From UHGV virus genome UHGV-0072281: a stretch of 64,000 nt of DNA; one strand, written 5' to 3'. Shown piece by piece: positions 14,837 to 55,607 of the stretch. The translations under genes and the position numbers were made by a program. Position 1 is the first letter of the stretch, and each line of letters begins with the position of its first letter. The notes below the pieces were generated by a model. That model was not told where the DNA came from, searched no databases, and saw nothing but the letters and a program-made list of their open reading frames with translations. Origin of the DNA: a virus.

Positions 14837-14857
14837 CGTAAAGACTCCTACTTTTTA

Positions 14858-14894: not shown

Positions 14895-14931
14895 TACCTA
14901 CGGACACACAACTGCCCGCAGGCAGCCTGTC

Positions 14932-19116: not shown

Positions 19117-19126
19117 AAAATTCTCC

Positions 19127-22100
19127 TTAATCGCGAATGATTACCGCCTGCACTAAATTGTTGGTGTCGATAAACGACATTACGCGCTCCTTGTTAAGAT
19201 AAGGAGGTATCGGTAACGCAGCGTAATCCGCCAGGTTGTTATTAAACTCGGTTGCCACTAGCGCATTAAGCGTTTCAGGGTCTGAGCTTGTCCCGGCCAA
19301 TTCCATAACACGTACACGATTTAACGAGGAATAGTTGCTGATATAATCCAACAGCGTACCGTAGAGTTTATTCCCGGTTATGCTGTCCGCCGTAGAGCGG
19401 ATATTGGCACGCACTTCGTCCTCATAAAGTCCCCCTAATCCGTAGTAAATAGGGGTATACGGATCGTTAACGATAGGCGCGAGGTTGAACCCGGTTAAAC
19501 GGTCGGTCAGCGAGATTTTCTGCGTAGTACCACCTACCGCCGTACAGCTTACGTATTTATCTGCGGCAGATAAATACACCACAATAGTGTAAACAGTACC
19601 TGCTAAGGTCAGCGTTGCGTTAAACGTTAATTCGTTATTCGCATCACGCGTATGGCTAAATGACACATCGGGTTGTAACGTACTCCACGGTGCAGGTGTA
19701 ACACGTTTCGTTGGCGTGAAACCTAACACCACAGATTTCCCGTTACCGAAGTTTAAACCAAACCCGGCGTAACAATATTCACCATTACTGTCAGTTAAAC
19801 GATAGCCGCGAGTGATAAGTAACGACAACCGCATAAACTCGCCATCGGTGTTTTTCCAACAACCTAAAATGGTTTCTAACACCGTGCCGGTTTTTGCGTT
19901 GCTTTCGGTTTCCCAACTGACTCGCATCCCCGCATTGCTAAATAGGGGGAACAGGTTGTGGATAAATCCATGAACGTTATCACTTACCCCTTTCGCGTCA
20001 AACATCCACTTCGCCGTAAGCTGATCGTATTTCACACCGTCGAGCGCTTTATAACCGTCTCCAACCACATAACGCCAGTCTGCTTCACCACGCACAACCG
20101 CTTGGAGTCCAGAAGCCCAGCAGGGCGCACCTACTGTTAAATTGCTTAACCCCAACACCGCGCGCGAGGCATAACGTTGAATGTGTGCGTTATCGTTAGC
20201 GACGTGGTCTTTCAGCTCACGGAAATCGCCTAACCGCGTCACGTTACGCAACTCCACTACGTCCACTTCGGAAAGATCATTAACAACGAGCCTTCCCACA
20301 CGCGTCATGGTATCCGTCTCAGCTTGATTATAGCTGTCGTGAATAATGTACTTCGCTTTGTTATCGACAATGTCAACAAAAATCCCTGCGTAAACTTCCT
20401 TATTCAGATTCGGGAAACGTTCGGTGACGTTAACCGACATCAACGGTACGTCGTACGTTTCACCACCAATGAAATACGTGGAAGCAGGAAGTGTCACCAG
20501 GATATTGTCTTTAACCGTAACGTCAATTAAGTCGTTACCAGACTTACCAAAACGAATAATGTCAATGCGAGCGCCTGAGTCAACACCACCGACAGTGTTC
20601 TCCAAATCTTCAATCTGGGAAGTCTGCGCCATCACCACACTACTATCGAGTGCTAAAGTGTCATCATCCACATCCAGACCGAATTTAATCAGACCCCGTT
20701 TCGTGGTGTCTGCGTTAGCAACACCGAATACGGAAGACGGGTGTTGGTGAACCTTCGGTGAGTATTTGTCCAGCTCGGTCTGCTGTGCAACAGAAATCGG
20801 TAAGTCAACGTCCGGGGTATTCGCAACGTTACCTAAACCAAAGGTAATTTTGTCGATAGTAACCGAACTGGTAAGCTGCATGTCGTTGATGTACGACTTG
20901 GCGGCAACTAACTTACCGGTAAACTCTGCGTCCAGTTTTTCAATTAACGCGGGTGTCGCTGCAAGGTTTTCAGCCGTACCGAATTCGTCCGTTAACTGCC
21001 AGCAGGCTAAGGTAGTAACGTCATTGGCAACCGGAAGGATAAACGTTACGACAAAGGGCGATGCTTTAATCCCGCTGCCAGTAAGTTCTACGGTAGACGT
21101 AGACGCACCGTAGAACAGACCTGTACCGCCTGCGGTATTACCCGGCAAATACGGCCCGACTGTAGTGGGGTCTAAGAGCTTCTTACCACGCCACAGTAAT
21201 CCACGGTCATCAGGATATAGCACAAGCTGGTTATCGCCCGCCTGTAACGTTACCGGGTTGTTACCCACGTTAACGTCAGTAGAACCTTGACCGATGAACT
21301 TAATGGATTTCGGATCAACGACAAACTGGGCACCTAAACGTGTCTCGTCAACAACATCAGGTGCTTTCTTAATGGTAACCGTGTTACCTTTGTTTTGCGA
21401 ACTAATGGTGACAGCATCAGCAACGTTGTTAATCCACGTTTTAAAATGATATTGATTTTCCAACGCTTCTAGCGCAGAATCCATGTTATCAAAATTAATT
21501 CTGGCACTGTAAGTTTTACCGTTTACCGTAACGACAGCATCGAACACGTTCCCCGTGCGCTTCAACTGGAAACGTAATGAGAAATCGCTGTTAGGTATTG
21601 CCGGATCAGGAGCTTGAGAAATATACCTTACCTGCGGAACTGTACCAACAGTATTAAGGCTTAGCGAAACTTCAATAGAGATAGTATCGCCCCAGATTCC
21701 GGCTTTTATCTCGACAAACTTGCCAGCGATTGTGCCCGGGTTCTCGTAAAACCGCATAATCGCGGAACCGACCGCCTCATTACCCGACGCAGTTTTTATA
21801 CCAGTGACAATAAAGTCAATATCTTGCAGGTTAGCGGGTACCGCATTAAAAGAAGCACTAAATCCATTCTTCGTTCCTGTGTAACGAAGCGCGCCGTGAT
21901 ACCTGTGACCACTACTAACATAGTTTTCGCTAAAATAAGGGTTCACGTATTTAGACATCGAAACCGGATCAACTTCTGTCGTGAACGAAGTAAAACCGGG
22001 CAGCGTTCCAATGGTTCCGTCGGCCGTTTTCGTAGTTGACGTGCGCAGTAGTTTCTTTTGCGCAATCAATGTTTCTTGCGTTGGATACTTAGCATTAACA

Positions 22101-23452
22101 TAATCTGTTAACTGCGGCTTCGTTTTTCCGTAAGCTAACGCTGTATCCGTCGCAATACCATTCAACTCTAACGCACGGATCGCCCCCCACGTGTCGCTGT
22201 GCGGGTTGTCCTTACGTGTAACGTGTTCGTGTGCGGGTGCGTTACGATACAACTGCTCAACTAACTGATGGTACTTAACGATTAACTGATAAACGTCATT
22301 ACTTACGTCAGCTTCTGGCGAACCAGGTAACGCAAGGAATTGAGCGTAATCGTTTTCAGCCGCCCACCAGTTTAAGTTAACGTTGGTTTTGTATTTCAGC
22401 CACTTCGCAACGTCTGTTTTGCTGTAACCTGCTGAGAATTCGTCTGGCGGTGTGTCAACGTTAAACGTATAGTCCATGGACTGTTTGTTAGTCGTCACCT
22501 CGATAACGTATACACCGTTACCCGGTTGACGGACAACGCTAAACGTTAACTCGCCTTTTAATTCATCGTCGGTCAAACCGTTGATTAACGTATAATCGTA
22601 ATCGGTTGAACCACTGCCTAACGCAACCGTCAGTCGTAGGCCAATTTTACGTTGTTTTAATTGGAGACGAAGGATACTTGCGCCACCGTTCGCGTAGCAC
22701 AACATCCAATCGATTTGTTCATTCGGGTTAATACTCCCCATATTCGGAAAAATAGCCGGAATACGGTATTTCATCGACAGGGAATATTCATTTAACGTGG
22801 TGGTTTTGTACGTAACGGAGAAACGACGTTTGGCGGTGTTGTAGGTATACCCACCTTTGTTATCGTACGTTGCGTACTGTTCAGACGTGATAACCGTACC
22901 ATTAGCACGATGTTCGATATCTAACGTGTTGCGCGCAATCGGGTCTAACCGATTCACCACGTTGCCTAACGAATCACCTAAGCCTGCAATGGCCTGCATT
23001 AATTCCAGTTCACCTTTCCAGTTTTCCCAGTCGAACTGAATGTCAACCGGTGGAAAGTAAACATCACCAATAACGGTATCCCATTGACACGCAGACGGGT
23101 ATTTATCTTTATTGAGTTCGCGTTCTGCGGTAATCTGTTCTTGGGTCGCTTCACCACAACCTACGGCGTGGTAATCTACCGTGAAATTCGATTTGTATTT
23201 GTCGTTAACAATCCAAATCATCCCGTGCACGAGATAGGCTGTGCGCAACATACCGGTCTCGTACGGGTGTGTAATAACGTAATCGTCGCCTAAGGTCAGT
23301 ATTTTGCCGCCGCTCTTGACCACCAGGGATGTGGTGAAAAAAGGGGCGTGGGCAGGTACCAACATTCGGTACTTCGTACCAATGACGGCGACCGCTTCAC
23401 CGGTTATTTTATTCCCCGGTTCTTTGAAGTGTGGGTCTAGGACGACAGCCAT
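19127..23452 (-). CDS. large tail fibre / tailspike-like structural protein
   Basis: 1441 aa ORF; N-terminal HAPFF...GDDYVI motif; first gene of the minus-strand block. Confidence 0.6.
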   Translation of the reverse strand: MAVVLDPHFKEPGNKITGEAVAVIGTKYRMLVPAHAPFFTTSLVVKSGGKILTLGDDYVITHPYETGMLRTAYLVHGMIWIVNDKYKSNFTVDYHAVGCGEATQEQITAERELNKDKYPSACQWDTVIGDVYFPPVDIQFDWENWKGELELMQAIAGLGDSLGNVVNRLDPIARNTLDIEHRANGTVITSEQYATYDNKGGYTYNTAKRRFSVTYKTTTLNEYSLSMKYRIPAIFPNMGSINPNEQIDWMLCYANGGASILRLQLKQRKIGLRLTVALGSGSTDYDYTLINGLTDDELKGELTFSVVRQPGNGVYVIEVTTNKQSMDYTFNVDTPPDEFSAGYSKTDVAKWLKYKTNVNLNWWAAENDYAQFLALPGSPEADVSNDVYQLIVKYHQLVEQLYRNAPAHEHVTRKDNPHSDTWGAIRALELNGIATDTALAYGKTKPQLTDYVNAKYPTQETLIAQKKLLRTSTTKTADGTIGTLPGFTSFTTEVDPVSMSKYVNPYFSENYVSSGHRYHGALRYTGTKNGFSASFNAVPANLQDIDFIVTGIKTASGNEAVGSAIMRFYENPGTIAGKFVEIKAGIWGDTISIEVSLSLNTVGTVPQVRYISQAPDPAIPNSDFSLRFQLKRTGNVFDAVVTVNGKTYSARINFDNMDSALEALENQYHFKTWINNVADAVTISSQNKGNTVTIKKAPDVVDETRLGAQFVVDPKSIKFIGQGSTDVNVGNNPVTLQAGDNQLVLYPDDRGLLWRGKKLLDPTTVGPYLPGNTAGGTGLFYGASTSTVELTGSGIKASPFVVTFILPVANDVTTLACWQLTDEFGTAENLAATPALIEKLDAEFTGKLVAAKSYINDMQLTSSVTIDKITFGLGNVANTPDVDLPISVAQQTELDKYSPKVHQHPSSVFGVANADTTKRGLIKFGLDVDDDTLALDSSVVMAQTSQIEDLENTVGGVDSGARIDIIRFGKSGNDLIDVTVKDNILVTLPASTYFIGGETYDVPLMSVNVTERFPNLNKEVYAGIFVDIVDNKAKYIIHDSYNQAETDTMTRVGRLVVNDLSEVDVVELRNVTRLGDFRELKDHVANDNAHIQRYASRAVLGLSNLTVGAPCWASGLQAVVRGEADWRYVVGDGYKALDGVKYDQLTAKWMFDAKGVSDNVHGFIHNLFPLFSNAGMRVSWETESNAKTGTVLETILGCWKNTDGEFMRLSLLITRGYRLTDSNGEYCYAGFGLNFGNGKSVVLGFTPTKRVTPAPWSTLQPDVSFSHTRDANNELTFNATLTLAGTVYTIVVYLSAADKYVSCTAVGGTTQKISLTDRLTGFNLAPIVNDPYTPIYYGLGGLYEDEVRANIRSTADSITGNKLYGTLLDYISNYSSLNRVRVMELAGTSSDPETLNALVATEFNNNLADYAALPIPPYLNKERVMSFIDTNNLVQAVIIRD

Positions 23453-33464: not shown

Positions 33465-34073
33465 ATGAACGAAATTACTTTGGTTCGTTTTATCGAAGCG
33501 ATGCGACTAAACGAAGCTAATCCTCACTCTCCGTTATTCATCGATTTAATGGAGGAAGAAGTCGAAGGGTTCTTAGCGTACCCGCGTTTGAAAGCGTATT
33601 TCGAACGTAAAACACCAACCGCTTACGAGAAGTTGATGTACGCGTTAGACAACCGTACTACGCTGAACACCACACCGTTTAAAGCGCTGGAAGCAATAGA
33701 CCCTACCGGGGGTGCAGGTATCCCACAACGTGTTGTGTTCTACTACATCGACAACGGCCGTATTAAAGCCGACGTTGTAAACTGGATCTCCGAAGGGGAA
33801 ATCCCAGAAACGCGTACTTTTAACCTCTGTCCGGTAGAAGAAGGTTGGGTCGCAGGAACGCATTATTCCTATCCGTATCAAAGCATCAAATCACCTTATC
33901 TGTATCCGGTGTATTTAGATGACGTTACGCCAGGAAAATGTATTCCCGTTACCAATCTGATTTGCTTACTGACGATGGAAGTTGTTGCGTCAGACGCAGG
34001 CCAGGCTTGGGTTGAGCAATCGAAAAATATCCAAAACTGGCAGCAGATGGGTTACAAACTCTACCAGCCGTAA
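33465..34073 (+). CDS. hypothetical protein
   Basis: 202 aa; AAGGAAA SD; followed by terminator. Confidence 0.6.
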   Translation: MNEITLVRFIEAMRLNEANPHSPLFIDLMEEEVEGFLAYPRLKAYFERKTPTAYEKLMYALDNRTTLNTTPFKALEAIDPTGGAGIPQRVVFYYIDNGRIKADVVNWISEGEIPETRTFNLCPVEEGWVAGTHYSYPYQSIKSPYLYPVYLDDVTPGKCIPVTNLICLLTMEVVASDAGQAWVEQSKNIQNWQQMGYKLYQP

Positions 34074-34080
34074 TACCACG

Positions 34081-34128
34081 AGAGAACCTTCGGGTTCTCT
34101 CCCTTCTCTTTTATTTTTTTTTCTTTTT
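34081..34128 (+). terminator. intrinsic terminator
   Basis: gagagaacc-ttcg-ggttctctc then T-rich run. Confidence 0.65.
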
Positions 34129-34158
34129 ACACCACGCTCCGTGAATATGGAGGTGGAC

Positions 34159-36663
34159 ATGTTAAAAGTTGAACGTATTGTACTTAAAGGATTTACCGGA
34201 ATGGGGTTACACGAAATCGAAACCTTCGATTTTACTATCCATTCCCCGACCACCATTATCCTCGGTGGTAACGGCTGCGGTAAGACCAGTTTACTGTCCG
34301 TGTTTCTACCTATCGCACCTTCGAAATCCGAATTCCGTGACGGGGGTTCTTACACCAACATCTGTTTGGTTAACGACCATCGTTACAAGTTTAAGGTTGC
34401 GCGTAAAGGCAACTCACTGGTTTGCGATATCGAGAACCTGACGACGGGTACCAAAATCGTCGAACAAGGTAATGCGAAAGTGTATAACTCTCGTGTAGAA
34501 GAAATCACGGGTATTACAAAAGAGATTAAAGAGTTACTGAACGGAGAAGTGCTTTTAACGGATGCAGGAACGGAACTGCGTCGTAAGTGGTTCTACCGTT
34601 TAAGTACGTCAGACTTAACTTACGCGTTAGGTTTTTATCAACGTTTACGAAAAAACCTGACGATGTTAAACGGCGGTGTTGAAATCACCAGCCGCAAGAT
34701 TGCAGAGTTGCGCACTCGCGTGATTGATAACGAGGAAGAACGTCAGCAGTTAGCAACACGGTTAAAAGCATTAGAAGTAGATTTACGTGAACTCAACAAA
34801 CAGATTGAACAACTGCCGGGTCTGAATCGTGACGTTACGGCGGCAACGATTCAATCGCTATTGCTTAAAATCGAAGCACCGATTAATGCTATCTTGGAAC
34901 ACCGTGGCGGATTACCTACGGAAGAACAGGTAGAGGAAGCACGACGCGTTGAAGCCACTGCCCGTGAAGCGGTGGTCTCTGCTGAAACAGAACTGTCCAT
35001 GCTAAACAAAGATTTGTCTTTGTTGATGGACGAGTCTACCCGCCAAGATTACCTGATGCGGAATCACGAGGGGTTAAAGAACACGGTTGCAAAACTGCGT
35101 GAGTTATTAAAGCAGTGGGACACCGAACATCTTTTCCCTGAACTGTTTGCGGAGACCGTTAATATCGACCAGCTTAAAGCAGCGACAGATGCGCGTGTCT
35201 GGGGACAACGTTTAGGAACAACGCTGGATGCTATTAAATCAACGGAACGGTTGAACGTACTGGAAGAGAAACTGTTGACCTTAGACCAAAACTCATCTGG
35301 GTTGCGTGACCGACTACAACGCGTTGAAAACGTATTGCAGAACCTCAACCACGAACGGAATCACTATTTGGAAACCGCCGAGGTTGATTGTCCGCAGTGT
35401 CAATTTAAATTCCGTCCGGGTGTGCGTCGTTCTTTGCCTGAATTGGAAGAAGCCATTCGTGGACAAATGGAGCAACGTAATACGTTACAGACTCAGCTTG
35501 ATTCCGTATTGCGAGACCGTACGGAATTAGAGTCGGACGTTAACTACATGCGTCAAGTACGAGAAATCGTTTTAACGTACTCGAAAGACCCGGTATTGAG
35601 TTTGTTCTTTAAACGTCTCCAGGAGCGGAATGTCTTTACGGATAACCGCAGTCAATTCGGCAGTCTGTGCGCGGAGTTTGATCATGAACTTTATTCCGCA
35701 ATTGAATACCACGAAACGAAACACCGTTTTGCTAAAGCGGAAAAAGAGTGGGCAAACGCAGTTGCAGCGGTAGGTAACGTTGATGGCGCTCTACAGCAGA
35801 AAATTGCCTTCCAGCAGGAGCGTTTGGGTAAGGCGACAGAAACGCTCTCAGAGCGCCGTAGAGAGCACGCAGTTGCTAATGATACCTTTTGTTATCTAAA
35901 CGAACTTAAAGCCACTGTAGACAATTTTAATGCGGTTTTTGAGCGTTTAGAGAACGATGTTAAGGTAACATTAACCAACACAGTGGTCGAAACGTTATTA
36001 AACGCCCGAGAAAACAAGTTGGATGCGTTCACCACAGCACGGGAACGGTACCGTCAGATGGAAAACGAACTCAACCAACTTACTGCGTTAGAAAAGGAGT
36101 TATCGGATTTACAAGCGCAGCAATTCAATAACAAACTGATGATTCAAGCGTTCTCGCCCGAGAAAGGGGTATTACGCAAATACTTCTACAACGCTATCGT
36201 GAGAATCACAGAATTAATGACGCGGTATATCGAACAAGTCTGGACCTACCCTATGCGGGTCATGCCGTGTGACTTAACCGACGGTGACTTAGACTACACG
36301 TTCCCAGTGCAGTTAAAAACCCATCCTGAACCGGTACCTGACGTGCGGAAAGGGTCGAAAGCGCAGCGGGCCATCTTTAATTTGATGTTTCGTTTAACCG
36401 CTTACAAAGCCCTGAAACTTCATCAGTATCCGCTACTGTTGGATGAACCGTCAGAAGGGATGGATGAGGAACACCGAAATAACCTCGTCGGGTTTATTAA
36501 AACCCTGGCGAATTCCGGTGAGTTCTCTCAGTTACTGGTGGTATCTCACGAAGCAGAAATTCATTCAAAACTTAACGAAGCCGCATACTGTGTTATTGAA
36601 CCTGAAGGTATAACACTGCCTGCGGTATACAACGAGGGAGTAAAAATTGTCTACGCAAACTGA
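34159..36663 (+). CDS. Rad50/SbcC-like SMC-family ATPase
   Basis: ORF 33982..36663; start moved to ATG 34159 after GGAGGTGG (ATG 34147 also possible); Walker A GGNGCGKTS, long coiled-coil middle, CPQC zinc-hook-like motif, C-terminal LLLDEP and VVSHE. Confidence 0.7.
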   Translation: MLKVERIVLKGFTGMGLHEIETFDFTIHSPTTIILGGNGCGKTSLLSVFLPIAPSKSEFRDGGSYTNICLVNDHRYKFKVARKGNSLVCDIENLTTGTKIVEQGNAKVYNSRVEEITGITKEIKELLNGEVLLTDAGTELRRKWFYRLSTSDLTYALGFYQRLRKNLTMLNGGVEITSRKIAELRTRVIDNEEERQQLATRLKALEVDLRELNKQIEQLPGLNRDVTAATIQSLLLKIEAPINAILEHRGGLPTEEQVEEARRVEATAREAVVSAETELSMLNKDLSLLMDESTRQDYLMRNHEGLKNTVAKLRELLKQWDTEHLFPELFAETVNIDQLKAATDARVWGQRLGTTLDAIKSTERLNVLEEKLLTLDQNSSGLRDRLQRVENVLQNLNHERNHYLETAEVDCPQCQFKFRPGVRRSLPELEEAIRGQMEQRNTLQTQLDSVLRDRTELESDVNYMRQVREIVLTYSKDPVLSLFFKRLQERNVFTDNRSQFGSLCAEFDHELYSAIEYHETKHRFAKAEKEWANAVAAVGNVDGALQQKIAFQQERLGKATETLSERRREHAVANDTFCYLNELKATVDNFNAVFERLENDVKVTLTNTVVETLLNARENKLDAFTTARERYRQMENELNQLTALEKELSDLQAQQFNNKLMIQAFSPEKGVLRKYFYNAIVRITELMTRYIEQVWTYPMRVMPCDLTDGDLDYTFPVQLKTHPEPVPDVRKGSKAQRAIFNLMFRLTAYKALKLHQYPLLLDEPSEGMDEEHRNNLVGFIKTLANSGEFSQLLVVSHEAEIHSKLNEAAYCVIEPEGITLPAVYNEGVKIVYAN

Positions 36664-36847
36664 TTGGTGGCGTCAGTTACTAAGCGTTTTAGGCTTTAGC
36701 GTCATGGTGCTGGTTGCCATTCTGTACGTGCTATTTTGTATAACGGCGATTTTATGGGTGGTCTTAGCGTACGCGATTAGGCTCACCTGGGGTTCAATTT
36801 GGCACCAACGCGAATGTGAGTGGCGGTGTGTTGGAGGGAAGTCATGA
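36647..36847 (+). CDS. small hydrophobic membrane protein
   Basis: 66 aa with TTG start after GGGAG SD; two hydrophobic helices. Confidence 0.45.
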   Translation: MSTQTDWWRQLLSVLGFSVMVLVAILYVLFCITAILWVVLAYAIRLTWGSIWHQRECEWRCVGGKS

Positions 36848-36954
36848 TTGAGGGTATTCTGTTAACACTTGGGTCGTTGTGGATTATTGGGAAATCCCTC
36901 AACTGGCTGATTAAAAAGCACGGATGGGCTTTCAAAGGCTCTACGTACAGTTAA
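36844..36954 (+). CDS. tiny hydrophobic peptide (36 aa)
   Basis: ATGA start/stop overlap with previous ORF; MIEGILLTLGSLWIIGKSLNWLIKKHGWAFKGSTYS; below the ORF-track cutoff. Confidence 0.35.
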   Translation: MIEGILLTLGSLWIIGKSLNWLIKKHGWAFKGSTYS

Positions 36955-36963
36955 GTTAGAACC

Positions 36964-36991
36964 CCCTCCTGGGTAACTGGGAGGGTGTTTT
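36964..36991 (+). terminator. possible terminator/attenuator between tiny ORFs
   Basis: ccctcc-(10-nt loop)-ggaggg then tgtttta; short U-tract. Confidence 0.4.
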
Positions 36992-37005
36992 ACGAGGGAA
37001 GAACT

Positions 37006-37134
37006 ATGACTGTTGTCAATACTACCAATGCTGCAATCGGCGCTTTATATAACGCGGAACTAACATGGGGTGCGGGTTTTATTACCGTACTGCTTCTCGC
37101 CGCAGCCGCTTTTATCATTGGACGTTGGTTTTAA
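37006..37134 (+). CDS. tiny hydrophobic peptide (42 aa)
   Basis: GAGGGAAG SD; MTVVNTTNAAIGALYNAELTWGAGFITVLLLAAAAFIIGRWF; below the ORF-track cutoff. Confidence 0.4.
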   Translation: MTVVNTTNAAIGALYNAELTWGAGFITVLLLAAAAFIIGRWF

Positions 37135-37166
37135 TTTCATCTTTTTGCGTCTGTAAGGTCTGATAA

Positions 37167-37610
37167 ATGGAAATTTATTTGTTGAACGCACATTCTAAAA
37201 TCGGTGAGCAGCAAGCGAAAGATTTACTCGCACTCCATTACCGTTACTTAGATCACCAAGCAACGATGCTGAAAATCAAAACCGCTGTACCGAAATTAAA
37301 CGTGCGTCAACTGATCGAAGGCAACTGTGTTGTTCTGATTTATATCGACGATGTTGCGGTGGGTTATTGCAGTTACCGTAATCGCAACGGGGTACTCAAA
37401 ATTCGTTCGTTATACGTGCTGCCCGATTACCGTCAGCGTGGGGTAATGAAAGAAATCTTCAAAGCGATAGCCACTGATGAAACATTCGGTGAAATTGCAA
37501 TTGGGATGTACACGAAGTGCAAAGAAGCGAAAGAGTATTTCATTCGTCGTGGCTACAAAGCAACCTATTCTCACGATAAAGAATGGGTGGAATTCAGTAA
37601 AACTTTCTAA
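37167..37610 (+). CDS. GNAT-family N-acetyltransferase
   Basis: 147 aa; VLPDYRQRGVMKEIFKAI resembles the acetyl-CoA-binding motif; C-terminal EAKEYFIRRGYK. Confidence 0.55.
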   Translation: MEIYLLNAHSKIGEQQAKDLLALHYRYLDHQATMLKIKTAVPKLNVRQLIEGNCVVLIYIDDVAVGYCSYRNRNGVLKIRSLYVLPDYRQRGVMKEIFKAIATDETFGEIAIGMYTKCKEAKEYFIRRGYKATYSHDKEWVEFSKTF

Positions 37611-37626
37611 AACAATAAAGGCTCTC

Positions 37627-37655
37627 TTGACGTTCCTCACTATGAGTGTGAGAAT
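37627..37655 (+). promoter_or_regulatory. sigma70-like promoter candidate
   Basis: TTGACG, 17-nt spacer, TGtGAGAAT (extended -10-like), ~20 nt upstream of ATG 37677. Confidence 0.3.
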
Positions 37656-37676
37656 TTTACGTCAGGAGAGCTACTT

Positions 37677-37913
37677 ATGTTAAACAGTTTCGGTGTAGGT
37701 GGAATGGATACAAGCATTTGCTGGAAAGAATACGAACGTGCAAATGCATTTCTCCAGCATCCCAACGTGGGTAAGATCGGTCAGGTGTGTTTTGGTAAAC
37801 CTGCACTGACAGCCTGTATTCAAGGTGCGTTAGGAACGCTGCCACCTGAATCACCTTTCGAGCCTAAGGAGAATCCAGATGTTACCAGGAACCCAAACCC
37901 CGTATCTATTTAG
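37677..37913 (+). CDS. hypothetical protein
   Basis: 78 aa; AGGAGAG SD. Confidence 0.5.
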   Translation: MLNSFGVGGMDTSICWKEYERANAFLQHPNVGKIGQVCFGKPALTACIQGALGTLPPESPFEPKENPDVTRNPNPVSI

Positions 37914-38253
37914 TGAACCACTGGATAACAGCGACATCTTACAAATCTGTTATCAGTGTCACGAAATCGGTGGTAGTGAACTTACGCGGGTTAATAAACT
38001 GCTGTGGCTGATTCCAGAAATCGAATTACCGTTCGTTAAACCGAGTTTGTGGCGTCGTGGTGCGTGTCGCGAAGCGTATATGCTGTCAAAGTTTAACATT
38101 AATCTGGAGAAGGTCTGGGAGAAGATGAACGACGGCCAAACCAGAGAACAGATTACTCACACGCTGGAATTGCACCTTGCCATGAAACGCCTCGGTCTCG
38201 AACACGAAGGACTGGAGTCCGTTATCAGTCAATGGGTGAAAAGGAATCGTTAA
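37879..38253 (+). CDS. hypothetical protein
   Basis: 124 aa; AAGGAG SD; overlaps previous ORF by 35 nt. Confidence 0.55.
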   Translation: MLPGTQTPYLFSEPLDNSDILQICYQCHEIGGSELTRVNKLLWLIPEIELPFVKPSLWRRGACREAYMLSKFNINLEKVWEKMNDGQTREQITHTLELHLAMKRLGLEHEGLESVISQWVKRNR

Positions 38254-38326
38254 TGTCTAAAACGTATATAGCGATTTTGGTTGAGTTGGCGATTGGTGGA
38301 ACGCGGTTTATCCCTGTGCATCAATT

Positions 38327-38851
38327 ATGCTTACCTCACTCGGTAAGACCGTTATGCTAACGATACTTCCAGAATCGGTTATTGACAACGACCTGTTTAA
38401 CGCCCCTGAGCGCTTCAAGGTCGTTACGATAAATTGTGTAGGGGCAATGGGTCGGGGTATCGCTTTAGCGTGCAGAGAACGCTATCCTGGGCTTTATCAG
38501 GACTACCGAGAACGTTGCTTCGCTAACGAGATACGAATAGGGAATGTGTACGTTTATCCCGAGGAAAACTGCATTCTCTTACCAACTAAAACACATTGGA
38601 AACTGAAATCCCAGGTTTCTTATGTTATCGCGGGTATCACCGCGTTGGCAGATGCCGCAGAAAACTTAGAGGGTGGGGTGGCTTTACCGCCGTTAGGGAT
38701 GGCCAACGGTTGGTTGACAAAAGCTGAATGTCAACAAATCTTTTTGTTTATCGAAAAGAAACTCGTACCGAGGAGACAACAATACTGTTTCTATTTACCT
38801 GATCCGCTTTACCAAGAAGCAAAACCTTTAATTCCAAACCTTTTTAAATAG
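38327..38851 (+). CDS. macrodomain protein (putative ADP-ribose-binding/hydrolase, TARG1/DarG-like)
   Basis: 174 aa; INCVGAMGRGIALACRERYPGLY and later ALPPLGMANGWL resemble macrodomain signatures as remembered; start may be ATG 38354. Confidence 0.55.
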   Translation: MLTSLGKTVMLTILPESVIDNDLFNAPERFKVVTINCVGAMGRGIALACRERYPGLYQDYRERCFANEIRIGNVYVYPEENCILLPTKTHWKLKSQVSYVIAGITALADAAENLEGGVALPPLGMANGWLTKAECQQIFLFIEKKLVPRRQQYCFYLPDPLYQEAKPLIPNLFK

Positions 38852-38866
38852 ATATTATCATTAGGG
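38850..38866 (+). promoter_or_regulatory. AGATATTAT motif overlapping stop codon of macrodomain gene
   Basis: tagatattatcattaggg; same TAGATATTAT core at 48321. Confidence 0.25.
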
Positions 38867-38951
38867 CACACAACAAAGGAGTACCAGCTGTCCGCGCCGT
38901 GATTTCGTTCTACGGAATACGGAAATGTATAAATCCAACTGGAGAACTAGT

Positions 38952-39638
38952 ATGTTTCGTATCTTCTTTCTTTTACTGGTAACACTTTTCGCGTTTAACG
39001 CATACGCATCCAAATCCGCGCCCAGTACCAAACACCATCGTGAATTCGAAATGATTCAAGACCGTTTCGAACGGGTAAAACCGTTGATTGTGGAAATCTC
39101 TCGAAAGCAGGGTGTTGATCCTAATTTGATGACCACGCTAATCTATCGAGAGTCACGGTTTAATCCGAAAGCGTATAATCGAACGTCTAAAGCGCACAGT
39201 CTGGTTCAGATGCTGCCGAGCACAAAGCGTAATTTGCTAAAACTCTACGGTGCCGAAATCGGACTTAGCCGCAATGCAGATTTGTACAATCCTCGTAATG
39301 CGGTGCTATTGGCTTCCGTCTACGTTAAACATTTAGAAAAGGGGTTAACTAAACGACTCAAACGCAAGCCCACTATTGCAGAAATAGCATTGGCTTATCA
39401 CTGGGGTGAAAGCGGTGCACACGCCAGGATTAAAAGCAAGTCTCGGGCAGCACAACGAGAAATGGCGAGCTTTATGAAAGATGCAACGTTCTACAGTGCA
39501 AAAATCAACAAGCCTGTAGCATCTCGTCAGCTTGCGTTTGCGAAGAAACCAGAACGCCAGATTCAGTTAGCAGAAGTTAACCGAATTTGGGATACGATAA
39601 ACACCAGTTTTCCATTTAAACAAGGAGTCACCCTTTGA
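38952..39638 (+). CDS. lytic transglycosylase (SLT-like domain) with signal peptide
   Basis: ORF 38925..39638; start moved to ATG 38952 after GGAGAA; MFRIFFLLLVTLFAFNAYAS signal-like; YRESRFNPKAYNRTSKAHSLVQMLPST resembles SLT catalytic region. Confidence 0.6.
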   Translation: MFRIFFLLLVTLFAFNAYASKSAPSTKHHREFEMIQDRFERVKPLIVEISRKQGVDPNLMTTLIYRESRFNPKAYNRTSKAHSLVQMLPSTKRNLLKLYGAEIGLSRNADLYNPRNAVLLASVYVKHLEKGLTKRLKRKPTIAEIALAYHWGESGAHARIKSKSRAAQREMASFMKDATFYSAKINKPVASRQLAFAKKPERQIQLAEVNRIWDTINTSFPFKQGVTL

Positions 39639-40144
39639 GCATCGTTGTAACCGATTGGTATAAAGGTATCACTAAGGCTACCCAAATTACTGCCCAGGAC
39701 GTGTACAGTATCGTTCGTAGCAGTAGCGAAGACCAGATAAAGTCCGACGAAGACTTTGCAACGCGTCATGAGTTTTACGATGCCCTTAAAACGGCTTTCG
39801 GTGATGACGAAGAAGAAGGCTTAGAGTTTGACTGGAACGTCAACCTTGCCTTGTTGTGGATTTGCGGATTACGTCCGAGTGTGAAAGACACGGAGCAAGG
39901 GAAAGTTCTGTTGTGGCACTACACCGGTAAATACAATCCGAACCAGGTCTTTAAAGAAGCGTATATGGAAGCCACTGTAGAGTTACAGAATCTGCTGTTG
40001 GGTGAGAACACCTACTGTCAACGCAGCTTCCTGACGATTCTGGAGAAACTGGCGTCTACACACAAAATCTGGCGTCAGGCAGATGCCCCTGAACACATCT
40101 TCGTTCTGGAATTTGCTGTGATTCCAAACCAGCCGTTCTTTTAA
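39635..40144 (+). CDS. hypothetical protein
   Basis: 169 aa with TTG start after AAGGAG; followed by terminator. Confidence 0.5.
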   Translation: MSIVVTDWYKGITKATQITAQDVYSIVRSSSEDQIKSDEDFATRHEFYDALKTAFGDDEEEGLEFDWNVNLALLWICGLRPSVKDTEQGKVLLWHYTGKYNPNQVFKEAYMEATVELQNLLLGENTYCQRSFLTILEKLASTHKIWRQADAPEHIFVLEFAVIPNQPFF

Positions 40145-40150
40145 TACTTG

Positions 40151-40188
40151 CCCCTAATCCGATTGGATTAGGGGTACTTTTATTTATT
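40151..40188 (+). terminator. intrinsic terminator
   Basis: cccctaatcc-gatt-ggattagggg then tacttttatttatt. Confidence 0.7.
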
Positions 40189-40207
40189 CCCCTAAAGGAG
40201 AAAAGGT

Positions 40208-40687
40208 ATGTTGAAGTTTATCTGGCGTTACCCAACCCGATTTTGGTTCGTGGTATTAGAGGTAATCACCGTTCTACTGTTAGTGACATTCGTAAACGCC
40301 CCTACGAAACAAATGGTGATTTTCTGTGTATTCGTCGCTATACCGTTGTGGGTATTTGCAAAGATTATTAAGTTTTACATGATAAGCTGGGCGAACTACA
40401 CCTGTCCATTTAAACCCAGAGAAATCATGAACTGGTTGATGTATATCGAAGACCGTTTACCCGCTCAGTCTAAAACGTTAGGCTGGCAATCGATGTTGGA
40501 TATTGCGCTAGAAACAAACGCAAAATTCCCTGGGTCAAAGAATCCTTATTTGCTGCTGGCTGTTATTGTTGCCCAGCAGAAACGTGCAGGCGAACGTTGG
40601 TTACCGAAAGAAGCGAAAGAGTATATTCGTAAACATCCGAAGGCTTTCTATTCCGTAGGTCAATGGCGTAACCTCCCACTCTTTTAA
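40208..40687 (+). CDS. membrane protein (multiple hydrophobic helices)
   Basis: 159 aa; CTAAAGGAG SD; N-terminal half hydrophobic. Confidence 0.6.
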   Translation: MLKFIWRYPTRFWFVVLEVITVLLLVTFVNAPTKQMVIFCVFVAIPLWVFAKIIKFYMISWANYTCPFKPREIMNWLMYIEDRLPAQSKTLGWQSMLDIALETNAKFPGSKNPYLLLAVIVAQQKRAGERWLPKEAKEYIRKHPKAFYSVGQWRNLPLF

Positions 40688-40740
40688 CTTTTTTACAAAA
40701 CCCTTAGTTGATTTGAATAAACCTAAAGAGGACTATTAAA

Positions 40741-41676
40741 ATGACTTTTCCATCTGAAGTAATTTACGAACTGGCTAACACACTACGTCGTCACTATAGC
40801 GCCAAGATGATGCAAACCCATGTGGGTGCGACCGCTGACTTTTTGCGCGGCCATTTCCTGGGCAATAACCCGCCATCTATTACACAGGAAACGGTTTTCT
40901 CTATCGATCGTGCCTCCTTAATTCTTCCAATCGACCACGCCATTGCGGTTCAAGAAGGGAATACGTTCAACTTCTCTATGGGAATGCGACGTTCGTCTAT
41001 CGCCGTTAACTCAAACATGGGAAATAACCAGTCTTTCGTACAGAACACGCACTCTGCAGAACACGGTAACTGGTTCGTTGTTGTAGAACAAGGCGTGAAT
41101 CAGTATGACGTTGTTGCAGCTCGCGATGAATCTTTCTTTGAGCTGGGACAGATTTCTCGCCGTCGTGAAATTGCGCTTGACCTACGTCAAGGTAATATCG
41201 GATTAAGTGGGACCAGTGTCTATTTCATCCTGAGCAGTTGGGCACATGTAAGTTATGTGCTGAAAAATGCCAGTCCGACGTTCCACGCAACGACGGTAGA
41301 ATTTCGTGGCCTTGAGATAGAATATCGTGACGAAGAAGAAACGGTACCTGGCACAGAGGTCGCCATTTGTGAAAACTACGATGATCTGAAATCTGTGCTT
41401 GTTAAGCGTGATGTTTTCGAATCGTTAAACTTGGATTTCCCCGGCGATGAAAATGAAATATCCGTAGCTGACCTGGTAGAAACATTGTGTCAGAAAGACC
41501 AAGCTAACGAAATTAGCGACGAAGAAGCAGAACTCTTCCAAGTTCAACAACTCATCAGCAAGGTTATCGGCGGTCAGGAAATTGTTGACACCCTTATGGC
41601 TTTACCACCGAAGAAACGTACTCAAAAGTACATTCGTGAACTGGTTCTTGAAAACCTGGGTCAAGCCAAAAAGTAA
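40741..41676 (+). CDS. hypothetical protein, paralog family C member 1
   Basis: 311 aa; AAGAGG SD; MTFPSEVIYELANTLRRHYS and VYFILSSW motifs mirrored in next gene. Confidence 0.6.
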   Translation: MTFPSEVIYELANTLRRHYSAKMMQTHVGATADFLRGHFLGNNPPSITQETVFSIDRASLILPIDHAIAVQEGNTFNFSMGMRRSSIAVNSNMGNNQSFVQNTHSAEHGNWFVVVEQGVNQYDVVAARDESFFELGQISRRREIALDLRQGNIGLSGTSVYFILSSWAHVSYVLKNASPTFHATTVEFRGLEIEYRDEEETVPGTEVAICENYDDLKSVLVKRDVFESLNLDFPGDENEISVADLVETLCQKDQANEISDEEAELFQVQQLISKVIGGQEIVDTLMALPPKKRTQKYIRELVLENLGQAKK

Positions 41677-41684
41677 TTTAAATC

Positions 41685-41718
41685 CCCTACTCCCGGAGGA
41701 GTAGGGTTAATTCTTTTT
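41685..41718 (+). terminator. intrinsic terminator (CCCTACTCC stem family)
   Basis: ccctactcc-cgga-ggagtaggg then ttaattcttttt. Confidence 0.7.
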
Positions 41719-41737
41719 CCATCTTAGGAGTATTAAA

Positions 41738-42286
41738 ATGTTTCCATCATCTGAATATTTAACCCACCTGGCTTACGGTATTCGTCGAGGTTCTGTTTTC
41801 CGTACACGTTTAAAGGACGTAAATTTCCTGGCTAATTTCTTATTTAACCATTTGGGAGATGGAACTAACGTTTACAAAAAGATCACCACAACACAACTTT
41901 ATTCCCTTATAGCGGCGTCTGAAATTGTACCTACAGATATTTGGCGATTCAAGCGTTATAACGGAGATATTACGATCAGTTTTCTTGATCATTCTCCTAT
42001 TACCGTTGAAATCGTCGAACGCGTTGATATTAATAGTGAAGTGTCTGGTTGGAAGATTCTGTTTGATTGTGGCAATCGTTATGCGGTACTTGGCTCCTCT
42101 GATGAACGTGACTTCCCATTCGACAAACCCTACTACTACCTCAGCGAAGATGATTTCCCGGATAAAGAATCCAATATCTTTTTAAACGGGGATACCGTTT
42201 ACTTCATTTTTCGTACTTGGAACGATGTTGCTGCTATGATTGCTCAAGGTGTCATCGATTACCGTAAACTAGAAGTCGACATTTAA
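41738..42286 (+). CDS. hypothetical protein, paralog family C member 2
   Basis: 182 aa; AGGAG SD; MFPSSEYLTHLAYGIRRGSV and VYFIFRTW. Confidence 0.6.
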   Translation: MFPSSEYLTHLAYGIRRGSVFRTRLKDVNFLANFLFNHLGDGTNVYKKITTTQLYSLIAASEIVPTDIWRFKRYNGDITISFLDHSPITVEIVERVDINSEVSGWKILFDCGNRYAVLGSSDERDFPFDKPYYYLSEDDFPDKESNIFLNGDTVYFIFRTWNDVAAMIAQGVIDYRKLEVDI

Positions 42287-55307: not shown

Positions 55308-55607
55308 ATGCGTTATCAAACGGAGATTGTGGAGCGCTTAAGCGAAGGTTTAGCCAGCGTCAGTCTGGAAACAGCAGCGGCATTTCGTGAGACTTTCGCT
55401 ACTTTCTTTCCCGATCGTGAATCTTTTTGTTTAAAGGTCGGTGAATATTATTCCAAGTTACTCGAACACTACGGTTACCCGCCGGTGAAATTCGACGTAC
55501 CTGAAAACACCGACGACATCAGTTATTGGATTGAAACCCTCGAAGCAGGGACACTTTCCAACTTGCGTAAGGCGGTAGAAAATGAAACTCGATCCAGCGC
55601 GGCGTAA
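55308..55607 (+). CDS. hypothetical protein
   Basis: 99 aa; AAGGAG SD. Confidence 0.55.
   Translation: MRYQTEIVERLSEGLASVSLETAAAFRETFATFFPDRESFCLKVGEYYSKLLEHYGYPPVKFDVPENTDDISYWIETLEAGTLSNLRKAVENETRSSAA

What the first reader, a model, noticed from the sequence alone, without database searches (positions are those of the whole stretch)
38327..38851. Macrodomain protein: candidate counter-defence against ADP-ribosylation
The product carries NCVGAMGRGIAL...YPGLY and LPPLGMANGW, matching the TARG1/DarG-like macrodomain as remembered. Macrodomains remove ADP-ribose from protein or DNA, so a phage copy is a plausible counter to ADP-ribosyltransferase-based defences (for example DarT-type DNA ADP-ribosylation). 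It lies in a block with a GNAT acetyltransferase and a signal-peptide transglycosylase.
Basis: partly seen in the sequence, partly recalled or inferred. Interest (0 to 1): 0.65.

Follow-up and report, generated by a model that had tools for sequence, protein, structure and literature searches.

The report
Jumbo-phage AdfM anti-DarT macrodomain
This gene encodes a small stand-alone DarG-type macrodomain enzyme of a nucleus-forming jumbo phage, a clear ortholog of the recently published anti-defence protein AdfM, which strips ADP-ribose off phage DNA to defeat the bacterial DarTG2 defence.

Summary
The ORF at 38327-38851 (+) is real and carries the quoted motifs. Its true start is probably ATG 38354, giving 165 aa. 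It is a DarG-type macrodomain. DarG-specific HMMs hit only their macrodomain part at about 1e-31. The nearest solved structures by sequence are the M. tuberculosis and T. aquaticus DarG macrodomains. An AlphaFold model (pLDDT 94) matches them best by fold (TM 0.75-0.84). The catalytic Asn and Lys (N36, K88) and both ADP-ribose-binding loops are conserved. The protein lacks DarG's C-terminal DarT-binding domain, and no DarT gene was found in the window, so it is an orphan "antitoxin".

The window is collinear with the chimalliviruses SPN3US and Asesino. A 96-98% identical 222 kb replicon encodes chimallin. The protein is 61.6% identical and syntenic to Asesino gp217, and 34% identical to PhiKZ gp104. 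Both were named AdfM in Cell Reports 2026. For PhiKZ gp104, that study showed removal of DarT2 ADP-ribose from DNA, rescue of DarT2 toxicity, protection against DarTG2 and import into the phage nucleus.

Activity has not been tested for this SPN3US/Asesino-type clade, which carries a clade-specific Trp next to the active site. The neighbouring GNAT and SLT genes are confirmed, but nothing links them functionally to the macrodomain.

The parts
38327..38851 (+). Longest ORF (174 aa) encoding the stand-alone DarG-type macrodomain, an AdfM ortholog
   Evidence: ORF and translation. DarG HMMs at about 1e-31. PDB DarG macrodomains at 1.7e-20. AF2 pLDDT 94.3 with Foldseek top hits 5m31/5m3e/5m3i. 61.6% identity to Asesino gp217 (AdfM). 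34% identity, E 3e-27, to PhiKZ gp104.
38354..38851 (+). Probable true coding sequence (165 aa, start at Met10 of the long ORF)
   Evidence: 20 of the 21 closest database homologs inspected start at this Met. PGAP aa in NZ_CP173450.1. The AF2 model of this version begins directly with the first beta-strand.
38432..38467 (+). ADP-ribose-binding loop 1, NCVGAMGRGIAL. The first codon (38432-38434) is Asn36, equivalent to T. aquaticus DarG2 N22 and PhiKZ AdfM N23.
   Evidence: Alignment A1. N present in 151 of 152 family representatives. The N23A mutation reduces PhiKZ AdfM activity (PMC13309987). Coordinates checked.
38582..38599 (+). PTKTHW motif. Lys88 (38588-38590) is equivalent to the catalytic Lys: K80 of DarG2, K78 of PhiKZ AdfM, K84 of TARG1.
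   Evidence: T87 and K88 are invariant in A1, including TARG1. K is invariant in 48 homologs and present in 150 of 152 representatives. Coordinates checked.
38684..38713 (+). ADP-ribose-binding loop 2, LPPLGMANGW. The last codon (38711-38713) is Trp129, a clade-specific substitution where DarG2 and PhiKZ AdfM have Gly.
   Evidence: Alignments A1 and A2. Trp occurs in 12 of 38 stand-alone and 2 of 114 long representatives.
37167..37610 (+). Context only: GNAT acetyltransferase about 0.7 kb upstream. Its position is conserved in the SPN3US/Erwinia clade.
   Evidence: Pfam GNAT families. phrog_3810. Homologs in 53 phage records, all of this clade. Not related to the GNAT next to the macro gene in a Serratia phage.
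37879..38253 (+). Context only: conserved ORF of unknown function between the GNAT and the macrodomain gene
   Evidence: phrog_11720 at 8.5e-35. 43-44% identity to the syntenic ORFs of SPN3US and Asesino.
38925..39638 (+). Context only: SLT lytic transglycosylase with an N-terminal signal-like hydrophobic segment, immediately downstream
   Evidence: Pfam SLT at 3.3e-14. phrog_4067. Hydropathy profile and AYA|SK site. Same position in SPN3US gp068 and Asesino gp218.

Best explanation
The gene encodes an AdfM-type 'orphan antitoxin'. This is a stand-alone DarG2-like macrodomain made by a nucleus-forming jumbo phage (Chimalliviridae, Seoulvirus/Erskinevirus-like).

The inferred mechanism is as follows. 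When the host's DarTG2 system releases DarT2, that toxin ADP-ribosylates thymidines in TNTC motifs of single-stranded phage DNA. The phage macrodomain binds the ADP-ribose in its conserved pocket (loop 1 N36-CVGAMGRGIA, loop 2 PPLGMANG). It hydrolyses the thymidine-ribose bond using the conserved Asn36/Lys88 pair. This restores unmodified DNA so that replication and, above all, genome packaging can proceed. By analogy with its 62%-identical ortholog in phage Asesino, the protein probably acts inside the phage nucleus after selective import.

Shown here: the macrodomain fold, DarG-class affiliation, conserved catalytic residues, absence of a DarT-binding domain and of a DarT partner, orthology and synteny with published AdfM proteins, and the chimallivirus genome context. 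Inferred by homology: substrate, anti-DarTG2 phenotype and nuclear localisation.
For: DarG-specific profiles match the whole protein, but only their macrodomain part: NF048014 at 8.6e-31 over profile positions 7-151 of 338, and PADLOC DarG at 2.5e-31.

The best PDB sequence hits are the DarG macrodomains 5m3i (1.7e-20) and 5m31 (4.3e-18) and the DarTG fusion 7omu. The AF2 model has pLDDT 94.3 and pTM 0.90. Its best structural matches are 5m31, 5m3e (the ADP-ribose complex) and 5m3i, with TM 0.75-0.84 and E about 6e-13, ahead of TARG1.

Catalytic N36 and K88 align with DarG2 N22/K80 and PhiKZ N23/K78. They are kept in 151 and 150 of 152 family representatives respectively.

The protein is 34% identical (E 3e-27) to PhiKZ gp104. 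It is 61.6% identical (E 1e-61) to Asesino gp217 = YP_009290835.1, in the same gene order: SMC, GNAT, small ORFs, macro, SLT.

The published experiments on AdfM include in vitro removal of T-linked ADP-ribose, reduced activity in N23A, rescue of DarT2 toxicity, and 3-6 log loss of titre of deletion phages on DarTG2 hosts. They also include nuclear localisation of the PhiKZ, PhiPA3 and Asesino proteins (PMC13309987).

Chimallivirus context is well supported. 40 of 48 ORFs are collinear with SPN3US. One window ORF is 85% identical to an SPN3US split RNA polymerase subunit. A 96-98% identical replicon carries a chimallin homolog, 57.8% identical to the validated Asesino ChmA.

The nearest cellular relatives are genuine full-length DarG proteins, a DarT-macro fusion and macro-DprA (ssDNA-binding) fusions. 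The DarT2 target motif TNTC is not depleted in the window (2284 observed vs 2155 +/- 42 expected), so the genome offers plenty of substrate.
Against: No enzymatic or genetic test exists for this protein or for any member of its SPN3US/Asesino-type clade. For Asesino gp217 only localisation was reported. Identity to the biochemically tested PhiKZ protein is only 34%. The clade carries a Trp (W129) directly after the position of TARG1's catalytic Asp, where DarG2 and PhiKZ AdfM have Gly. It also has a conserved C-terminal tail (YLPxxLxxEA...IPN) absent from PhiKZ AdfM. Either feature could modify specificity. I could not inspect the pocket in three dimensions. The host of this phage, and whether it carries DarTG2, is not established.
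Confidence: 0.8

Rival explanations
1. The protein is a hydrolase for a different ADP-ribosylated target. Candidates are protein-linked (Glu/Asp) ADP-ribose as for TARG1, ADP-ribosylated RNA (e.g. from CmdT-type toxins), or DNA bases other than thymine. It would then counter another ADP-ribosyltransferase defence, instead of or in addition to DarT2.
For: TARG1 is the next-best structural match after DarG (E 7e-8, TM 0.69-0.76). A clade-specific Trp129 sits next to the active site, and a conserved C-terminal tail is present. No biochemical data exist for this clade.
Against: Sequence and structure are much closer to DarG2 (30-39% identity) than to TARG1 (17%). TARG1's Asp125 is replaced by Gly, as in DarG. 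According to the literature, DarG2 macrodomains act on thymidine-linked DNA ADP-ribose, and NADAR rather than macro domains reverse guanine-linked ADP-ribose. The nearest cellular relatives are DarG proteins, a DarT fusion and fusions to the ssDNA-binding protein DprA. Position 129 is variable even among DarG-like proteins (G, E, K, N, W).
Confidence: 0.1
2. The protein is a housekeeping nucleotide-metabolite enzyme: an ADP-ribose-1''-phosphate phosphatase (Poa1p/'Appr-1-p processing') or an O-acetyl-ADP-ribose deacetylase (MacroD/YmdB type). Many GenBank annotations suggest this, using names such as 'phosphatase' and 'Appr-1-p processing protein'.
For: PHROG 335 is labelled 'phosphatase' (3.5e-30). 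Homologs in GenBank are annotated as Appr-1-p processing protein or ADP-ribose 1''-phosphate phosphatase. Weak PDB sequence hits to Poa1p were found (E 0.05-0.14).
Against: These names are legacy domain labels, not tested functions. Poa1p similarity is 15-20 orders of magnitude weaker than DarG similarity, and Poa1p ranks only 21st and lower by fold. The protein has the DarG/TARG1-type catalytic Lys in PTK rather than the MacroD-type motif (the motif comparison rests on my own knowledge). Orthologous AdfM has a demonstrated DNA de-ADP-ribosylation and anti-DarTG2 role.
Confidence: 0.04
3. The protein is the eraser partner of a phage-encoded ADP-ribosyltransferase. It would regulate the phage's own ADP-ribosylation of host or phage targets rather than counter a host defence.
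For: Some phages pair ARTs with macrodomains. The homologous region in Streptomyces phage Kela lies in a gene annotated as ADP-ribosyltransferase (H11).
Against: No ART or DarT family was found among the roughly 58 window ORFs scanned with Pfam. Nothing of that kind is annotated in the syntenic 67 kb of SPN3US or 12 kb of Asesino. PhiKZ AdfM deletion has no phenotype on hosts without DarTG2. The remaining roughly 160 kb of this phage's genome was not scanned.
Confidence: 0.03
4. The protein is a non-catalytic ADP-ribose binder, or a sponge or hydrolase for ADP-ribose-derived immune signals such as Thoeris gcADPR.
For: Macrodomains bind ADP-ribose derivatives, and no assay exists for this protein.
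Against: The catalytic Asn and Lys are strictly conserved across the clade, which argues for catalysis. The closest relatives are catalytic DarG domains.
Confidence: 0.02

Closest known systems
AdfM (anti-DarT factor macro) of chimalliviruses: PhiKZ gp104, PhiPA3 gp108, Goslar gp83, Asesino gp217 (Morgan et al., Cell Rep 2026; PMC13309987)
   Same: Stand-alone DarG2-like macrodomain of about 160 aa encoded by a chimallivirus. The catalytic Asn and Lys are conserved. It is 61.6% identical and syntenic to Asesino gp217 and 34% identical to PhiKZ gp104.
   Different: It comes from a phage not in the GenBank phage collection (no megablast hit). It belongs to the enterobacterial SPN3US/Asesino-type sub-clade, whose enzymatic activity was not tested. 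It has Trp129 where PhiKZ AdfM has Gly, lacks the PhiKZ insertion before loop 2, and has a different C-terminal tail.
DarG2 antitoxin of the DarTG2 toxin-antitoxin / phage-defence system (T. aquaticus, M. tuberculosis; PDB 5m31, 5m3e, 5m3i)
   Same: The macrodomain is 38-39% identical over the core. It is the best structural match, shares the catalytic N22/K80 equivalents, and has the same ADP-ribose loops.
   Different: There is no C-terminal DarT-binding domain: 165-174 aa against about 340, and NF048014 scores 107 bits against a cut-off of 250. There is no adjacent DarT gene. It is encoded by a virus and would act against the system rather than as part of it.
T4 Tk.4, also named AdfM (HIDEN-SEQ preprint, bioRxiv 10.1101/2025.11.20.689424)
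   Same: A stand-alone phage macrodomain whose loss sensitises the phage to DarTG2. The concept of an orphan antitoxin is the same.
   Different: It is only marginally similar in sequence: BLASTP E 0.001 over 43 residues and hhalign probability 19%. This points to a separate macrodomain lineage that was probably acquired independently.
AdfN (T4 30.3 and other phage NADAR proteins), orphan antitoxins against DarTG1 (Johannesman et al., Nat Commun 2025; PMC11825919)
   Same: The same strategy: a phage carries the enzymatic half of a DarTG antitoxin to erase DNA ADP-ribosylation.
   Different: It has a different fold (NADAR, not macro) and a different substrate (guanine-linked, not thymine-linked ADP-ribose), and it has no effect on DarTG2.
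Human TARG1 / C6orf130 (PDB 4j5q, 4j5s)
   Same: The same macrodomain sub-class, with a catalytic Lys in the T-K motif (K84). It is a structural match at E 7e-8.
   Different: Only 17% identical. TARG1's Asp125 is Gly here, as in DarG. TARG1 is a eukaryotic enzyme acting mainly on protein-linked and phosphate-linked ADP-ribose.

Membership tests
Macrodomain superfamily (Pfam PF01661 Macro) | Sequence match to the Macro profile above the curated threshold | tested here: inconclusive
   PF01661 scores 20.8 bits (E 3.9e-4), just under the gathering score of 22, although it covers profile positions 3-117 of 118. Close homologs such as P0003 and P0007 carry precomputed PF01661 hits.
Macrodomain superfamily (Pfam PF01661 Macro) | Three-layer alpha/beta/alpha macro fold with an ADP-ribose-binding cleft formed by two Gly-rich loops | tested here: met
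   The AF2 model has pLDDT 94.3 and pTM 0.90. 207 PDB matches have E<=1e-3, and nearly all of the 50 listed are macrodomains or scaffolds derived from them, including ADP-ribose complexes. Loops NCVGAMGRGIA and PPLGMANG align with the DarG loops. The pocket geometry itself was not inspected.
DarG/TARG1-class macrodomain (DNA ADP-ribosyl glycohydrolase type) | Closest sequence and structure relatives are DarG macrodomains | tested here: met
   5m3i at 1.7e-20 and 5m31 at 4.3e-18. Foldseek ranks 1-4 are DarG or DarTG. NF048014 and PADLOC DarG at about 1e-31. The nearest cellular representatives are bona fide DarG proteins scoring 259-400 bits on NF048014.
DarG/TARG1-class macrodomain (DNA ADP-ribosyl glycohydrolase type) | Catalytic Lys (DarG K80 / TARG1 K84) and Asn (DarG N22) | tested here: met
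   K88 and N36 align with these residues. Both are conserved in the 48-homolog alignment and in 150 and 151 of 152 representatives respectively.
DarG2 antitoxin of a DarTG2 toxin-antitoxin system | C-terminal DarT-binding domain (full-length protein of about 340 aa) | tested here: not met
   The protein is 165-174 aa. NF048014 matches only profile positions 7-151 of 338 and scores 107 bits against a cut-off of 250. PADLOC DarG matches only positions 6-146 of 329.
DarG2 antitoxin of a DarTG2 toxin-antitoxin system | Adjacent cognate DarT toxin gene | tested here: not met
   The neighbours are a GNAT, phrog_11720 and an SLT. No PF14487 DarT or other ART family was found among about 58 window ORFs.
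AdfM (chimallivirus anti-DarT factor macro) | Homology to the founding members (PhiKZ gp104, Asesino gp217) | tested here: met
   BLASTP against gp104: 34% identity over 138 aa, E 3e-27. tblastn against Asesino gp217 (YP_009290835.1): 61.6% over 164 aa, E 1e-61, in the same gene order.
AdfM (chimallivirus anti-DarT factor macro) | Encoded by a chimallivirus (chimallin shell, split multisubunit RNA polymerases) | tested here: met
   40 of 48 ORFs are collinear with SPN3US (Seoulvirus, Chimalliviridae). A window ORF is 85% identical to the SPN3US 'RNA polymerase beta subunit' fragment. Replicon NZ_CP134650.1, 96-98% identical to the window over 27.6 kb, encodes a homolog 57.8% identical to the validated Asesino ChmA. 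Chimallin itself lies outside the 64 kb window.
AdfM (chimallivirus anti-DarT factor macro) | Removes DarT2-installed ADP-ribose from thymidine in ssDNA and neutralises DarT2 or DarTG2 | not testable with these tools
   Shown for PhiKZ gp104, and genetically for PhiPA3. Inferred here from conserved catalytic residues only.
AdfM (chimallivirus anti-DarT factor macro) | Selective import into the phage nucleus (PicA pathway) | not testable with these tools
   Shown by GFP fusions for the PhiKZ, PhiPA3 and Asesino proteins. No import signal is defined that could be searched for.
T4 Tk.4-type AdfM | Sequence homology to T4 Tk.4 | tested here: not met
   BLASTP E 0.001, 26% identity over 43 aa. hhalign probability 19%. 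The two share only superfamily-level loop 1.
Poa1p / 'Appr-1-p processing' ADP-ribose-1''-phosphate phosphatases (the legacy annotation of homologs) | Specific similarity to characterised Appr-1''-p phosphatases | tested here: not met
   Poa1p chains match only at E 0.05-0.14 over 39 residues and rank 21st or lower by fold. The 'phosphatase' labels in PHROG 335 and GenBank are untested domain names.

The most novel reading that the evidence does not exclude
The enterobacterial SPN3US/Asesino-type AdfM sub-clade may not be functionally identical to PhiKZ AdfM. It is defined by a near-invariant Trp129 directly beside the catalytic loop and by a conserved C-terminal YLPxxLxxEA...IPN tail. The Trp could stack on a base and change or broaden substrate specificity, for example to other base-linked DNA or RNA ADP-ribosylation. 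The tail could be the still-undefined nuclear import determinant. Either would give a new enzymatic specificity or the first sequence handle on chimallivirus nuclear targeting.
Probability: 0.08. Interest if true: 0.5.

Novelty: new member of a known kind. Interest (0 to 1): 0.2.

Why it matters
The gene adds one more, previously unannotated, member to the AdfM family. PGAP calls it "hypothetical protein" and older phage records call it "phosphatase" or "Appr-1-p processing protein". It extends the family to a Seoulvirus-like phage that persists in E. coli and Enterobacter isolates.

In practice the gene can now be annotated correctly. It predicts that this phage and its SPN3US-like relatives resist DarTG2, which is relevant for choosing therapeutic or biocontrol jumbo phages. 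It does not open a new question. The concept of an orphan DarG-like macrodomain as an anti-DarTG2 factor acting inside the phage nucleus was published in 2025-2026.

Tried and rejected
1. A megablast of the 3.6 kb region against the GenBank phage collection found nothing. The phage was identified only through protein searches and through the plasmid and E. coli collections.

2. The generic Pfam Macro model was sub-threshold.

3. I considered that the gene might be a bona fide DarG antitoxin of a phage-borne DarTG module. I rejected this because there is no C-terminal domain and no DarT gene.

4. I considered orthology with T4 Tk.4, the other protein named AdfM. I rejected this because similarity is only marginal.

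5. I considered a conserved functional GNAT-macro gene pair, because a GNAT overlaps the macro gene in Serratia phage Yaphecito. I rejected it as unsupported. The two GNATs are not detectably homologous, the window-type GNAT is confined to the SPN3US/Erwinia clade, and PhiKZ-type phages show no GNAT annotated near AdfM.

6. I looked for depletion of the DarT2 target motif TNTC and found none; the motif is slightly enriched.

7. The sigma-70 promoter scan of the region was uninformative, with fewer hits than in shuffles. It is also inappropriate for a phage that uses its own RNA polymerases.

8. I could not access model coordinates. The ADP-ribose pocket was therefore judged from alignment to the 5m3e complex, not by direct inspection.
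Full report
**Observation.** The + strand carries an uninterrupted ORF from 38327 to 38851 (174 codons). The complementary strand of the same span is full of stops. All quoted motifs are present: NCVGAMGRGIAL at residues 36-47, YPGLY at 53-57 and LPPLGMANGW at 120-129.

The gene is real. 60 database homologs were found, with E-values down to 1e-107, and 241 phage genome records contain a homolog. The exact protein is called on metagenome contigs of 50 kb to 1 Mb.

The annotated start is probably nine codons too early. 20 of the 21 closest homologs inspected begin at the Met10 equivalent, "MLT(I/V)..." or "MSLELIDE". PGAP aa in a 97% identical replicon. The structure model of the 165-aa form begins directly with the first beta-strand.

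A GNAT lies at 37167-37610. An SLT transglycosylase with a signal-like N-terminus lies at 38925-39638. A conserved ORF of unknown function lies between the GNAT and the macro gene.

**What the protein is.** The generic Pfam Macro model falls just below its threshold (20.8 vs 22 bits), but every more specific test is decisive.
- NCBIfam's DarG equivalog model matches at 8.6e-31 and PADLOC's DarG model at 2.5e-31. In both cases only the N-terminal macrodomain half of the profile is matched.
- Against all PDB sequences, the best matches are the macrodomains of M. tuberculosis DarG (5m3i, 1.7e-20) and T. aquaticus DarG (5m31, 4.3e-18), then the Thermosipho DarTG fusion.
- An AlphaFold2 model built on 48 homologs is confident (pLDDT 94.3, pTM 0.90).
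- Foldseek ranks the DarG macrodomains first, including the ADP-ribose complex 5m3e (TM 0.75-0.84, E about 6e-13). The DarTG fusion follows, then TARG1, then other macrodomains.

In a residue-level alignment, Asn36 and Lys88 coincide with DarG2 N22/K80 and TARG1 K84, and both Gly-rich ADP-ribose loops are retained. TARG1's Asp125 is Gly here, as in DarG.

An exhaustive profile search found 11,185 cluster representatives at E<=1e-3. After a dozen stand-alone proteins of 150-170 aa, the closest are mostly 280-380 aa with the macrodomain at the N-terminus. The sampled ones include genuine full-length DarG (four above the 250-bit equivalog cut-off), a DarT-macro fusion and fusions to the ssDNA-binding protein DprA. 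Among 152 representatives, the catalytic Asn is kept in 151 and the Lys in 150.

The window protein itself has no DarT-binding C-terminal domain. No DarT or other ADP-ribosyltransferase family was detected in about 58 window ORFs. It is therefore an orphan, enzymatic-half-only DarG2 homolog.

**Genome context.** There is no nucleotide-level match in the GenBank phage collection. At the protein level, however, the window is collinear with Salmonella phage SPN3US: 40 of 48 ORFs match in order at 25-83% identity. It is also collinear with Erwinia phages Asesino and pEa_SNUABM_43.

The genera of two of these relatives, Seoulvirus and Machinavirus, are classified in Chimalliviridae. Asesino is an experimentally confirmed nucleus-forming phage (PMC11724907). 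One window ORF (55582-56250) is 85% identical to an SPN3US split RNA polymerase subunit.

The same phage occurs at 96-98% identity as a circular "plasmid" of about 222 kb. One copy is in E. coli strain 98232 (urine) and one in Enterobacter ludwigii (gull cloaca). The Enterobacter replicon encodes a protein 57.8% identical over 92% of its length to Asesino's validated chimallin, gp039. The window therefore comes from a Seoulvirus/Erskinevirus-like chimallivirus.

**Comparison with the literature.** A 2026 Cell Reports paper (PMC13309987) describes this family.
- Chimalliviruses encode a stand-alone DarG2-like macrodomain, named AdfM (PhiKZ gp104).
- It removes DarT2-installed ADP-ribose from the second T of TNTC in ssDNA, and the N23A mutation impairs this activity.
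- It fully rescues DarT2 toxicity.
- It is required for plating on DarTG2 hosts, with 3-6 log defects for PhiKZ deletion mutants and reduced titres for a PhiPA3 mutant.
- It is imported into the phage nucleus. Without it, modified DNA is replicated less and, above all, is not packaged.

The paper names Asesino gp217 (YP_009290835.1) as an AdfM and shows its nuclear localisation. The window protein is 61.6% identical to that protein (E 1e-61) at the same genomic position. It is 34% identical (E 3e-27) to PhiKZ gp104, whose sequence I took from the paper's methods.

A 2025 preprint independently gave the name AdfM to T4 Tk.4, a macrodomain whose knockout sensitises T4 to DarTG2. Tk.4 is only marginally similar to the window protein, so it represents a separate lineage. 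The general principle of phages carrying orphan antitoxin enzymes against DarTG was established earlier for NADAR proteins (AdfN) against DarTG1 (PMC11825919).

**Mechanism.** The best-supported model is that the protein erases DarT2-made ADP-ribosyl-thymidine from phage ssDNA using the Asn36/Lys88 active site. It probably acts inside the phage nucleus and protects replication and packaging. The fold, class, catalytic residues, orphan architecture, orthology and chimallivirus context are shown here. Substrate, phenotype and localisation are inferred by homology. TNTC sites are abundant and not depleted in the window (2284 observed vs 2155 +/- 42 expected). This is consistent with reliance on an enzymatic counter-measure rather than motif avoidance.

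**Remaining uncertainty and differences.** No member of the SPN3US/Asesino-type sub-clade has been assayed enzymatically or genetically. This sub-clade has a near-invariant Trp (W129) where DarG2 and PhiKZ AdfM have Gly. The position is variable in the wider family: Trp occurs in 12 of 38 stand-alone and 2 of 114 long representatives. The sub-clade also has a conserved C-terminal tail not shared with PhiKZ AdfM. A shifted or broadened specificity therefore cannot be excluded, but I rate it unlikely.

The rival readings are a metabolite phosphatase or deacetylase, a partner of a phage ART, and a signal sponge. They rest mainly on legacy annotation or general possibility, and the much stronger DarG affinity and conserved catalytic residues argue against them.

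**The "block" with the GNAT and the SLT.** The order GNAT, small ORFs, macro, SLT is conserved throughout the SPN3US/Erwinia clade. Terminator-like hairpins at 36964-36985 and 40149-40176 bracket the group. I found nothing that links the genes functionally.

A GNAT also abuts the macro gene in a distant Serratia jumbo phage. That GNAT is not detectably homologous to the window's, and PhiKZ-type phages show no annotated GNAT near AdfM.

**Verdict.** The gene is a new, unannotated member of the already published AdfM family of anti-DarTG2 factors. It is of low novelty and modest interest.

Noticed in passing
whole window; tested with 36600-40200, 1-25000 and 40001-64000: The phage is absent from the GenBank phage collection but present at 96-98% identity as a circular 'plasmid' of about 222 kb. 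One copy is in E. coli strain 98232 (NZ_CP173450.1, human urine, Egypt) and one in Enterobacter ludwigii (NZ_CP134650.1, gull cloaca). This fits the published observation that Seoul-like chimalliviruses persist in bacterial isolates (bioRxiv 10.1101/2024.12.31.630880). NZ_CP134650.1 is the only one of 72,556 PLSDB plasmids with a chimallin hit.
   Followed up: partly
9653-23452 (- strand), three ORFs of 1727, 1394 and 1441 aa: Three giant, mutually paralogous virion structural proteins (phrog_7449, phrog_8078, phrog_7557, with cross-hits between them). This is the most divergent part of the window relative to the otherwise 96-98% identical Enterobacter replicon: only 53% of window 1-25000 is covered in the best place, at 87% identity. 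The N-terminal half of the third protein has no SPN3US counterpart. These proteins may be host-range determinants.
   Followed up: no
202-768, 820-1359, 1394-1924 (+): A tandem triplet of paralogous DUF7941 ORFs, about 28% identical to each other. All three hit the same single SPN3US gene (gp106), so this is a local gene triplication.
   Followed up: no
3181-4503, 4487-5410, 7018-7929 (- strand): Three radical SAM / 4Fe-4S ORFs. 4487-5410 and 7018-7929 both match the single SPN3US gene gp102, at 63% and 55%, so this phage has an extra radical SAM paralog. Their function is unknown.
   Followed up: no
40208-42286 (+), after the hairpin at 40149-40176: A strong terminator-like hairpin (12-bp stem plus T-run) is followed by a small variable island. 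The island holds a predicted membrane protein (phrog_20030) and two paralogous phrog_11818 ORFs. These have no counterpart in SPN3US and only a weak one in Asesino. This is a candidate accessory or anti-defence slot next to AdfM.
   Followed up: no
38711-38713 (Trp129) and 38747-38848 (C-terminal tail): The SPN3US/Erwinia-type AdfM sub-clade has a near-invariant Trp right after the loop 2 NG motif, where DarG2 and PhiKZ AdfM have Gly. It also has a conserved C-terminal YLPxxLxxEA...IPN tail. The significance for specificity or nuclear import is unknown.
   Followed up: partly
L011 (Serratia phage Yaphecito) 2032-2941; window 37167-37610: A GNAT gene overlaps the macrodomain gene by 38 nt in a distant jumbo phage, and a GNAT also lies upstream of the window's macro gene. 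The two GNATs are not detectably homologous. This may be coincidence or convergent association.
   Followed up: partly
33982-36663 (+): The SMC/SbcC-like ORF listed from a TTG at 33982 (893 aa) overlaps the preceding ORF. Homologs and the metagenome gene call are about 834-839 aa, so the true start is probably the ATG near 34147-34159 ('MEVDMLKVERI...').
   Followed up: no
whole window: The DarT2 target motif TNTC is not depleted. Counted on both strands there are 2284 sites, against 2155 +/- 42 expected under a first-order Markov model.
   Followed up: yes
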